From the IMG/VR virus record IMGVR_UViG_2541047814_000003, positions 1 to 11,196 of that record: 11,196 nt of DNA, one strand, 5' to 3'. The notes below the pieces were generated by a model that made no database searches, had not been told where the DNA came from, and worked only from the letters and a program-made list of their open reading frames with translations. Source of the DNA: a virus. Lineage: Duplodnaviria > Heunggongvirae > Uroviricota > Caudoviricetes. The translations under genes were made by a program, and so were the position numbers. Positions 5,606-5,834 of this stretch are shown here, in pieces; position 1 is the first letter of the stretch; every line of letters begins with the position of its first letter.

Positions 5606-5834
5606 CCTTCACCTGTTCACCTTTTGATATTTTATCTTTTAATTCATAATGTTAAGGGGTGAACAGTTTCACAAAAACTATTCACCAACTGTTCACCACT
5701 GTTCACCCTTGAAGCTCAATAAACAATCAAAAAGGTGAACAGTGAATAGTTTGGTGAACAGTTCATAAATAACTGTTCACCCTATAATATACTGATATAA
5801 AAGATATTTATGTCAGGGTGAACAGTGGTGAACA
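5606..5834. repeat. Iteron cluster / putative satellite replication origin (TGTTCACC repeats in both orientations)
   Basis: Perfect TGTTCACC at 5614, 5690, 5700, 5774; perfect GGTGAACA at 5658, 5734, 5753, 5817, 5827; several degenerate copies (TATTCACC, GTGAATAG); AT-rich spacers. Confidence 0.8.

What the first reader, a model, noticed from the sequence alone, without database searches (positions are those of the whole stretch)
5606..5834. Cluster of at least nine perfect TGTTCACC octamers forms a putative origin downstream of the primase
The octamer and its both-orientation clustering match what I recall as the P4 type I iteron bound by alpha protein at ori and crr. That places this lambda-packaged element's replication module in the P4 family. 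Promoters for the downstream three-gene operon probably lie among the iterons, so primase binding could also regulate them.
Basis: partly seen in the sequence, partly recalled or inferred. Interest (0 to 1): 0.5.

Follow-up and report, generated by a model that had tools for sequence, protein, structure and literature searches.

The report
Replication origin of a phage satellite
The repeat cluster is very probably the replication origin of an E. coli phage-parasitising island (a PICI), an element type already described; it uses the same 8-base protein-binding repeat as satellite phage P4.

Summary
Nine perfect TGTTCACC octamers lie at 5614-5834 (four on +, five on -), with three degenerate copies, where 0.36 are expected in the whole window. 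TGTTCACC is what the P4 GenBank record annotates as its 'ori type 1 repeat'. The adjacent gene product is 48% identical to P4 alpha over the helicase and the origin-binding domain (PDB 1KA8, E 2e-24). Each half of the cluster is collinear with the P4 ori core.

The element is not P4-like overall. It is a Gram-negative PICI at the cspD-clpS site, with the same replicon variant as the published EcCI224 and EcCIRM13514. An origin just downstream of pri-rep, with iterons flanking AT-rich DNA, was described in 2018 and tested for EcCICFT073.

Across 80 related loci the layout is conserved. The octamer changes together with one short segment of the origin-binding domain, probably its wing.

Three parts of the reading fail:
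- The 'primase' lacks the zinc ribbon and the catalytic residues of its TOPRIM domain.
- No second, crr-like cluster exists in the window or in 6 kb flanks of a close relative.
- No convincing promoter lies among the repeats.

Verdict: a real but ordinary origin, a new member of a known kind.

The parts
5606..5834 (.). Whole iteron array, the putative origin (ori). It consists of two half-origins in inverted orientation around a 26-bp centre.
5734..5834 (+). Half-origin next to rep. Read on the + strand: GGTGAACA, a degenerate copy, GGTGAACA, 13 nt, TGTTCACC, a 35-nt AT-rich spacer, then GGTGAACAGTGGTGAACA.
   Evidence: Collinear with P4 ori core 9309-9415
5606..5707 (-). Half-origin far from rep. 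Read on the - strand it has the same order of elements as the other half. A 70-nt stretch is 79% identical to P4 ori 9309-9378.
   Evidence: blastn E 9e-12; alignment
5614..5621 (+). Iteron, perfect TGTTCACC
5658..5665 (-). Iteron, perfect
5679..5686 (+). Iteron, TATTCACC (one mismatch). P4 crr contains the same variant.
5690..5707 (+). Two perfect iterons 10 bp apart (5690-5697 and 5700-5707)
5734..5748 (-). Perfect iterons at 5734-5741, followed by an overlapping degenerate copy at 5741-5748
5753..5760 (-). Iteron, perfect
5774..5781 (+). Iteron, perfect
5817..5834 (-). Two perfect iterons 10 bp apart. The 18-mer GGTGAACAGTGGTGAACA is identical to P4 ori 9310-9327.
5606..5613 (+). Degenerate iteron CCTTCACC. 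Most relatives have a perfect or near-perfect copy here.
5622..5657 (.). AT-rich spacer (17% G+C), a candidate site of DNA unwinding
   Evidence: Among the least stable 30-mers of the window: -28.7 kcal/mol against a mean of -40.6, sd 3.6
5782..5816 (.). AT-rich spacer (20% G+C), a candidate site of DNA unwinding
   Evidence: Least stable 30-mer of the whole window, -27.0 kcal/mol
5708..5733 (.). Central spacer between the two half-origins
5582..5604 (-). A/T block next to the last iteron pair (TTAAAACGCAAAAATTTTAATTT on the - strand). It is conserved in relatives. Function unknown: possibly part of the origin, possibly a weak promoter.
   Evidence: inference
5849..7666 (-). Rep gene (annotated 'DNA primase family protein', 605 aa from the ATG at 7666). 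It is related to P4 alpha over the helicase and the origin-binding domain.
7262..7666 (-). N-terminal domain of Rep. It has a TOPRIM fold, but Ala replaces the catalytic Glu, Ala-Gly replaces DxD, and there is no zinc ribbon.
6242..7183 (-). D5_N and SF3 helicase (DUF5906) region of Rep
5882..6184 (-). C-terminal origin-binding domain of Rep, a winged helix homologous to P4 alpha OBD (PDB 1KA8)
   Evidence: E 1.8e-24; Pfam Pox_D5
5915..5965 (-). Putative wing segment EYMKRKTKHGLRSNVTL, whose sequence class tracks the iteron sequence across loci
   Evidence: The assignment as the wing is inferred.

Best explanation
The cluster is the replication origin of a Gram-negative phage-inducible chromosomal island (PICI).

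Proposed mechanism:
1. After a helper phage induces the island and it excises, the Rep protein encoded just upstream is made.
2. Rep binds the roughly twelve TGTTCACC-type iterons through its C-terminal winged-helix domain. Recognition is probably by the wing lying in the major groove, as in RFX1.
3. Paired iterons 10 bp apart put neighbouring Rep molecules on one face of the helix.
4. The two half-origins point in opposite directions. Each carries a 35-36-nt AT-rich spacer, and these are the least stable DNA in the window.
5. Rep's SF3 helicase is proposed to assemble and melt the DNA at these spacers, giving bidirectional replication.
6. Rep's TOPRIM domain looks catalytically dead, so priming is probably done by the host DnaG.

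Shown here: the repeat array and its statistics; identity with the annotated P4 type 1 repeat; homology of Rep to the P4 alpha helicase and origin-binding domain; collinearity with the P4 ori core; conservation of the layout; co-variation of iteron and putative wing; the low duplex stability of the spacers.

Inferred: actual binding, the melting site, bidirectionality and the source of primers.
For: Enrichment and conservation
- Nine perfect octamers against 0.36 expected per window.
- The same 601 bp occurs in 678 of 5426 complete E. coli genomes, always between a small ORF and the 'DNA primase family protein' gene.
- In 12 related PICI origins, 72% of iteron columns are invariant against 24% of spacer columns.

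Relation to P4
- The P4 record annotates TGTTCACC as 'ori type 1 repeat' in ori and crr.
- Rep is 48% identical to alpha residues 290-771 and matches the P4 origin-binding domain 1KA8 at E 1.8e-24.
- Each half of the array aligns with P4 ori 9309-9415: 79% over 70 nt, E 9e-12.

Comparison across loci
- In about 35 of the 80 Enterobacterales loci examined in detail, the number, order, orientation and spacing of repeats are kept while the octamer changes. Variants seen are TGTTCACC, TGTCTACC, TCTCCACC, TGTCCGCC, TGTCCACC and TATCTACC.
- Each octamer class goes with one class of the putative wing segment, with no exception among 77 proteins.
- L013 and L016 have a helicase 93-94% identical to the window's, yet a different wing and a different iteron.

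Physical properties and literature
- The two AT-rich spacers are the least stable 30-mers of the window.
- Fillol-Salom 2018 describes Gram-negative PICI origins just 3' of pri-rep as two iteron sets flanking an AT-rich region, and shows that EcCICFT073 pri-ori drives plasmid replication while mutants in rep or ori do not (PMC6092414).
- EcCICFT073 has the same layout with TGTCTACC.
- The published EcCI224 has a 99% identical Rep and a nearly identical origin.
Against: - There is no experiment on this sequence. The functional test was done on EcCICFT073, whose Rep is only 50% identical and whose iteron differs.
- In P4 the cluster that sits right after alpha is crr, not the initiation site, so position alone does not show that replication starts here.
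- The co-variation counts are not phylogenetically independent.
- Calling the co-varying segment the 'wing' rests on homology and on my recollection of the 1KA8 paper; my own model of the domain failed (pLDDT 38).
- The inactivity of the TOPRIM domain is inferred from missing residues, not measured.
Confidence: 0.87

Rival explanations
1. The cluster is the equivalent of P4 crr: a cis-acting Rep-binding enhancer that must cooperate with a separate origin where replication actually starts.
For: It sits directly downstream of the alpha-like gene, exactly where crr lies in P4. It contains the degenerate variants TATTCACC and CTTCACC that are typical of crr.
Against: There is no second cluster in the window, and none in the 6 kb chromosomal flanks of a 96%-identical island in another E. 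coli strain. All 34 of 34 alpha-type loci from Xenorhabdus and Photorhabdus also have a single cluster. The best sequence match is to the P4 ori core, not to crr. For EcCICFT073, pri plus this region alone sufficed for plasmid replication (PMC6092414).
Confidence: 0.05
2. The array is mainly an operator and promoter region. Rep, or another island protein, binds there to control the downstream genes (the 81-aa ORF, ssb and perC). This could also be a second role added to origin function.
For: No terminator-like site follows rep, and the downstream genes start 45 bp after the last iteron. A relaxed scan gives a weak candidate whose -35 hexamer lies in the last iteron (TGAACA, 18 nt, AAAAAT; window 5619-5590, - strand). 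A conserved A/T block lies there.
Against: The consensus scan finds no sigma-70-like site on either strand between 5200 and 6000, against 1.5 expected by chance. The relaxed candidates score 8-10 of 12 with poor spacing, in DNA that is AT-rich anyway. Gram-negative PICIs are described as transcribed in one direction (PMC6092414; PMC10111431), so read-through from rep is enough. Twelve sites in a dyad layout shared with the P4 origin are far more than an operator needs.
Confidence: 0.12
3. The repeats are a packaging (cos or pac) site, or another site for a non-replicative DNA-binding protein such as AlpA or integrase.
For: The island carries a Nu1-like small terminase, so a terminase binding site must exist somewhere.
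Against: The repeat sequence tracks the Rep C-terminal domain, not the terminase, AlpA or integrase. P4-type elements with alpha but no Nu1 homologue carry the same repeats. The cluster is 3.4 kb from the terminase gene.
Confidence: 0.01

Closest known systems
Replication origins of Gram-negative PICIs (EcCICFT073 tested; EcCI224 and EcCIRM13514 listed), Fillol-Salom et al. 2018, ISME J (PMC6092414)
   Same: The position is the same, immediately 3' of pri-rep. So is the plan of iteron sets flanking AT-rich DNA, and so is the island type: int, alpA, DUF4222, rep, ssb, perC, capsid, decoration protein, small terminase, all on one strand. EcCI224 has a Rep 99% identical and a near-identical origin. 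EcCIRM13514 has a Rep 87% identical and nine TGTTCACC.
   Different: The tested island, EcCICFT073, uses TGTCTACC, and its Rep is only 50% identical overall (33% in the DNA-binding domain). This island sits at cspD-clpS, and no complete E. coli genome in the collection holds an identical copy (best match 96% coverage, 96% identity).
Satellite phage P4 replicon: alpha protein with ori and crr
   Same: The 8-bp type 1 iteron is identical. The helicase and origin-binding domain are homologous (48% identity; 1KA8). The order of elements is the same as in the P4 ori core: three iterons, one opposed iteron, about 35 nt of AT-rich DNA, two iterons. An 18-mer is identical.
   Different: There is one dyad-symmetric cluster instead of ori plus crr 4.5 kb apart. 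There are no type 2 repeats and no detectable Cnr homologue. Alpha's zinc ribbon is absent and the TOPRIM catalytic residues are lost. The rest of the island is PICI-like, with lambda-type capsid and terminase genes, not P4-like.
SaPI / Gram-positive PICI origins (Ubeda et al.; from my own knowledge and as summarised in PMC6092414)
   Same: The origin lies immediately after the rep gene, with iterons on both sides of an AT-rich region.
   Different: I found no sequence relationship. SaPI Pri is an AEP-type primase (from my knowledge), and the iterons are unrelated.
Iteron-type plasmid origins (for example pSC101, R6K, RK2)
   Same: A cluster of short repeats is bound by the element's own initiator next to an AT-rich region that melts.
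   Different: Here the initiator is itself an SF3 helicase. No DnaA box, IHF consensus site or GATC was found in the region. The repeats are 8-10 bp rather than 17-22 bp.

Membership tests
Gram-negative PICI replication origin | Lies immediately 3' of the pri-rep gene, in non-coding DNA | tested here: met
   The array at 5606-5834 starts 15 bp after the rep stop codon (5849). No ORF of 50 aa or more crosses it.
Gram-negative PICI replication origin | [quoted passage not shown] | tested here: met
   Iterons lie on both sides of the two AT-rich spacers (17% and 20% G+C), which are the least stable DNA in the window.
Gram-negative PICI replication origin | Host element is a PICI: int, alpA and pri-rep on one strand, about 10-12 kb, at a PICI-specific att site, without a full set of phage genes | tested here: met
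   int at 9958-11196, alpA at 9339-9635 and rep at 5849-7666, all on the - strand. The cspD-clpS site is the one used by EcCIIHE3034 and EcCI18098.
Gram-negative PICI replication origin | Rep plus ori are sufficient for autonomous replication | not testable with these tools
   Shown only for EcCICFT073 (PMC6092414).
P4 replicon (alpha / ori / crr) | Type 1 iteron TGTTCACC in both orientations | tested here: met
   The octamer is identical to the feature annotated in NC_001609.
P4 replicon (alpha / ori / crr) | Initiator with an alpha-type helicase and a C-terminal origin-binding winged helix | tested here: met
   48% identity over alpha 290-771. 1KA8 matches at E 1.8e-24.
P4 replicon (alpha / ori / crr) | Initiator carries an active primase (zinc ribbon plus TOPRIM with catalytic Glu and DxD) | tested here: not met
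P4 replicon (alpha / ori / crr) | Two separated cis elements, ori and crr | tested here: not met
   There is a single cluster in the window, and none in the 6 kb chromosomal flanks of a 96%-identical island.
P4 replicon (alpha / ori / crr) | Type 2 repeats and the Cnr copy-number regulator | tested here: not met
   No match within one mismatch to the P4 type 2 repeats. BLASTP gives no alignment between P4 ORF106 and the two ORFs upstream of rep. A structural analogue of Cnr is not excluded.
P4-like satellite (whole element) | psu-delta-sid operon and epsilon (ash) | tested here: not met
   The window instead encodes homologues of lambda E, D and Nu1 and a Nu3-like protein. Relatives show no psu, sid or delta annotation.

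The most novel reading that the evidence does not exclude
One subfamily of Gram-negative PICIs and the P4-like satellites share a single origin-recognition specificity: the same octamer and the same class of wing segment. If so, P4 alpha could fire this PICI's origin, and this PICI's Rep could act on P4 ori and crr. Two satellite families with different helpers would then be coupled when they share a cell, through cross-activation, incompatibility or sensitivity to Cnr. Linked to this are two further ideas. The short wing segment of the origin-binding domain may act as a swappable code that sets which octamer is read. And the PICI 'Pri-Rep' may be a primase-dead initiator that depends on host DnaG.
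Probability: 0.35. Interest if true: 0.5.

Novelty: new member of a known kind. Interest (0 to 1): 0.3.

Why it matters
It does not open a new field. Origins of this kind were described and tested for Gram-negative PICIs in 2018, and two islands listed in that paper carry the same replicon variant.

The analysis adds four modest points:
- It ties one PICI replicon variant directly to P4 through the same iteron, a homologous origin-binding domain and a collinear origin core. The 2018 paper stressed that P4 and PICIs differ and evolved independently.
- It gives a simple, testable rule linking a short protein segment to the octamer that is recognised. That could be used to predict or re-engineer the replication specificity and compatibility of satellites, including PICI-based delivery vehicles.
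- It suggests that the name 'primase' for these proteins is probably wrong.
- It shows that P4's split ori/crr arrangement is the exception among the relatives sampled here.

Tried and rejected
- Full-text search for TGTTCACC alone returned only unrelated primer sequences. Combined with 'iteron' it found nothing.
- The AlphaFold model of the C-terminal domain from a shallow alignment failed (pLDDT 38). It was not used, so the wing assignment rests on homology.
- A Cnr homologue was sought among the two ORFs upstream of rep; none was found.
- P4 type 2 repeats, DnaA boxes, IHF consensus sites and GATC sites are all absent from the region.
- Rfam found nothing at gathering thresholds, so no P4 CI-like RNA was detected.
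- The octamer inside rep at 7120, with a one-mismatch partner at 7152, was considered as a second site or an autoregulatory site. It is kept in two of three close relatives checked (L001, EcCI224) but absent from the 96%-identical island L085, EcCIRM13514 and the other PICI-type loci, so I treat it as chance.
- ED1a could not be fetched under the accession I tried.
- Yeo 2002 could not be read. What I say about that structure comes partly from memory and partly from PMC10516667.

Full report
**1. The observation**

An exact search finds ten TGTTCACC in the 11,196-base window. Nine lie between 5614 and 5834, four on the + strand and five on the - strand. The tenth is alone at 7120. Shuffled sequence gives 0.36 per window and never more than two.

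One copy with one mismatch (TATTCACC, 5679) and two copies with two mismatches (5606 and 5741) bring the array to about twelve sites. Eight of the nine perfect copies read ACTGTTCACC. The array fills the 287-bp gap between a 605-aa gene and an 81-aa gene, both on the - strand. That gap is 33% G+C against 48% for the window.

**2. What the element is**

The same 601 bp around the array occurs in 678 of 5426 complete E. coli genomes. It always lies between a small hypothetical gene and a 'DNA primase family protein' gene.

In annotated relatives the island sits between clpS and cspD. It carries an integrase, an AlpA-type regulator, an Icd-like gene, DUF4222, the 'primase', an SSB, PerC, a major capsid protein, a head decoration protein and a small terminase. 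All are on one strand. The window starts just after clpS and ends at the integrase start codon.

This is the gene plan of Gram-negative phage-inducible chromosomal islands (PICIs) such as EcCICFT073. The cspD-clpS site is listed for EcCIIHE3034 and EcCI18098 in Table S1 of Fillol-Salom et al. 2018.

[quoted passage not shown] It also shows that the EcCICFT073 rep-ori segment drives plasmid replication, while rep or ori mutants do not (PMC6092414; also PMC10111431).

Two islands from the same table carry this window's replicon variant. EcCI224 has a Rep 99% identical and a nearly identical array. EcCIRM13514 has a Rep 87% identical and nine TGTTCACC.

**3. The link to P4**

The GenBank record of P4 (NC_001609) annotates sixteen 'ori type 1 repeat' features. 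Eleven are exactly TGTTCACC: six in ori and five in crr. The rest are TGTTCACA, TATTCACC or TCTTCACC.

The window's protein is 48% identical to P4 alpha over residues 290-771, which cover the helicase and the C-terminal domain. Its residues 502-598 match the solved P4 origin-binding domain, PDB 1KA8, at E 1.8e-24.

The DNA is related as well. A 70-nt stretch of the array is 79% identical to P4 ori 9309-9378 (E 9e-12), and an 18-mer is identical.

**4. Anatomy of the array**

Read away from rep, the array runs as follows:
- two iterons;
- 35 nt of AT-rich DNA;
- one opposed iteron;
- 13 nt;
- three iterons;
- a 26-nt centre;
- the mirror image of the above.

Each half aligns base for base in element order with the P4 ori core and with each half of the EcCICFT073 origin. 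The two AT-rich spacers (5622-5657 and 5782-5816) contain the least stable 30-mers of the whole window. Their values are -28.7 and -27.0 kcal/mol, against a mean of -40.6 and a standard deviation of 3.6. Paired iterons are 10 bp apart, about one helical turn.

I found no DnaA box, IHF consensus site or GATC in the gap.

**5. Comparative evidence that Rep reads these repeats**

A scan of one genome per species returned 80 loci from Enterobacterales encoding relatives of the protein. Nearly every locus with enough sequence has a cluster of an 8-mer within about 300 bp after the stop codon.

The 8-mer differs between groups. Variants seen are TGTTCACC or TATTCACC, TGTCTACC, TCTCCACC, TGTCCGCC, TGTCCACC, TATCTACC and TATCCACC. 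The number, order, orientation and spacing of sites stay the same across these groups.

Within the C-terminal domain most positions are nearly constant. One short segment after the last helix falls into discrete classes:
- KRKTK-x-G-IRSN, as in P4 (KRHTKQGIQTN), goes with TGTTCACC or TATTCACC.
- RKQCTRGPDKGRTISN goes with TGTCTACC.
- RKKSTKGNMRSN goes with TCTCCACC.
- KAESKKKATRGRIQSN goes with TGTCCGCC.

Each segment class goes with one iteron class, without exception in 77 proteins. The reverse does not hold, because TGTCTACC is read by two different segment classes: EcCICFT073 uses a divergent 17-residue segment.

Two proteins (L013, L016) have a helicase 93-94% identical to the window's, but a different segment and a different octamer. 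So the binding domain and the origin appear to move together as a unit.

The P4 origin-binding domain resembles the RFX1 DNA-binding domain (PMC10516667). RFX1 reads the major groove with its wing rather than with the usual recognition helix (PMC4333399). That fits a wing-based code here. The assignment of the variable segment to the wing is my inference, because my model of the domain failed.

In twelve origins of the TGTTCACC PICI type, 72% of iteron columns are invariant against 24% of spacer columns. These sequences are related to each other, so the comparison is descriptive rather than a strict test.

**6.

*The primase label.* P4 alpha matches the Pfam families Zn_Ribbon_Prim and Toprim. 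The window's protein and the EcCICFT073 protein match only D5_N, DUF5906 and Pox_D5. A profile comparison aligns only the tail of alpha's TOPRIM domain and the linker.

The residue after the first strand, where the catalytic Glu should be, is an invariant Ala (FAGSD). The position of the DxD motif holds Ala-Gly. There is no zinc ribbon. The protein is probably not a primase, and host DnaG is the likely source of primers. That last step is inference.

*No crr analogue.* The window has one cluster, and none lies in the 6 kb chromosomal flanks of a 96%-identical island in another strain. All 34 alpha-type loci (about 810 aa, with the primase domain) from Xenorhabdus and Photorhabdus also have a single cluster, downstream of the gene. 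P4's split ori and crr is the unusual case in this sample.

*Promoters.* The consensus scan finds no sigma-70-like promoter and no terminator between 5200 and 6000. A relaxed scan gives only weak candidates. A conserved A/T block at 5582-5604, next to the last iteron pair, is unexplained. Read-through from rep is enough to express the downstream genes, though a weak promoter controlled by Rep is not excluded.

*Family.* The replication module is related to P4, but the island is a PICI. I found no Cnr homologue, no type 2 repeats, and no psu, sid or delta.

**7. Verdict**

The array is almost certainly the island's replication origin. Rep binds it through its winged-helix domain, and the AT-rich spacers are the likely melting sites. 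It is a further example of a described and experimentally supported kind of origin, so interest is low to moderate.

The points that seem not to be stated in the searchable literature are:
- the exact identity of this variant's iteron and origin core with those of P4;
- the link between the putative wing segment and the iteron sequence;
- the degenerate TOPRIM domain;
- the modular N-terminal domain.

I could not see the figures of the 2018 paper, which may already show the TGTTCACC iterons.

Noticed in passing
window 5077-5319 (- strand); stop codon at 5077-5079: The island's ssb gene carries a nonsense change, TGG to TGA, relative to a 96%-identical island. This cuts SSB to 80 aa, against about 136 aa in relatives, so the gene is probably inactive here.
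   Followed up: yes
window 7262-7666 (- strand); L086 (EcCI042) and L087 (EcCI11128): The N-terminal ~130 aa of Rep are 75% identical to the N-terminus of the 466-aa 'helicase RepA family protein' of EcCI042 and EcCI11128. Those proteins have a different helicase type and unrelated iterons (AAAGTGAGG and AAGTGGGGA). The degenerate TOPRIM domain therefore looks like a module shared between two kinds of PICI initiator. Its role is unknown.
   Followed up: partly
window 7120-7127 (-) and 7152-7159 (+): A perfect TGTTCACC and a one-mismatch copy face each other 24 nt apart inside the rep coding sequence. The site is present in two of three close relatives checked (L001, EcCI224) but absent from the 96%-identical L085, EcCIRM13514 and more distant loci, so it is probably chance.
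   Followed up: partly
L035-L083 (Xenorhabdus and Photorhabdus loci); L002 (P4): All 34 alpha-type loci with long flanks have a single iteron cluster, downstream of alpha and with the PICI-like dyad layout. P4's separate ori and crr looks like a derived arrangement.
   Followed up: partly
window 5626-5650 and 5783-5806; P4 L002 9361-9385; L003 about 7040-7065: The AT-rich spacers are more than AT-rich. They share a loose motif (TTAAC/TATAA, a few bases, then ACTG-A/T-AT-T/A-AAA) between both halves of this origin, P4 ori and EcCICFT073. This may mark a melting or priming site.
   Followed up: no
window 5582-5604: An A5-T4 type block (GCAAAAATTTTAATTT on the - strand) directly follows the last iteron pair and is conserved in relatives. 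P4 crr units end in similar A/T runs (AAAAAATTTTTTTT). Its function is unknown.
   Followed up: partly
window 1613-4395 (- strand): The late module resembles lambda head genes: a Nu1-like small terminase (1613-2155), a 137-aa protein matching the C-terminal part of a head maturation protease or scaffold (2361-2774, phrog_53), a decoration protein annotated in relatives (2787-3122) and a major capsid protein (3134-4189). No portal or large terminase is present.
   Followed up: partly
window 8282-9328: The 348-aa ORF on the - strand is probably not a gene. Relatives annotate small Icd-like and YlcI/YnfO genes in this region. No Rfam family (for example the P4 CI-like C4 or isrK RNAs) reached its gathering score anywhere in the window.
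   Followed up: partly
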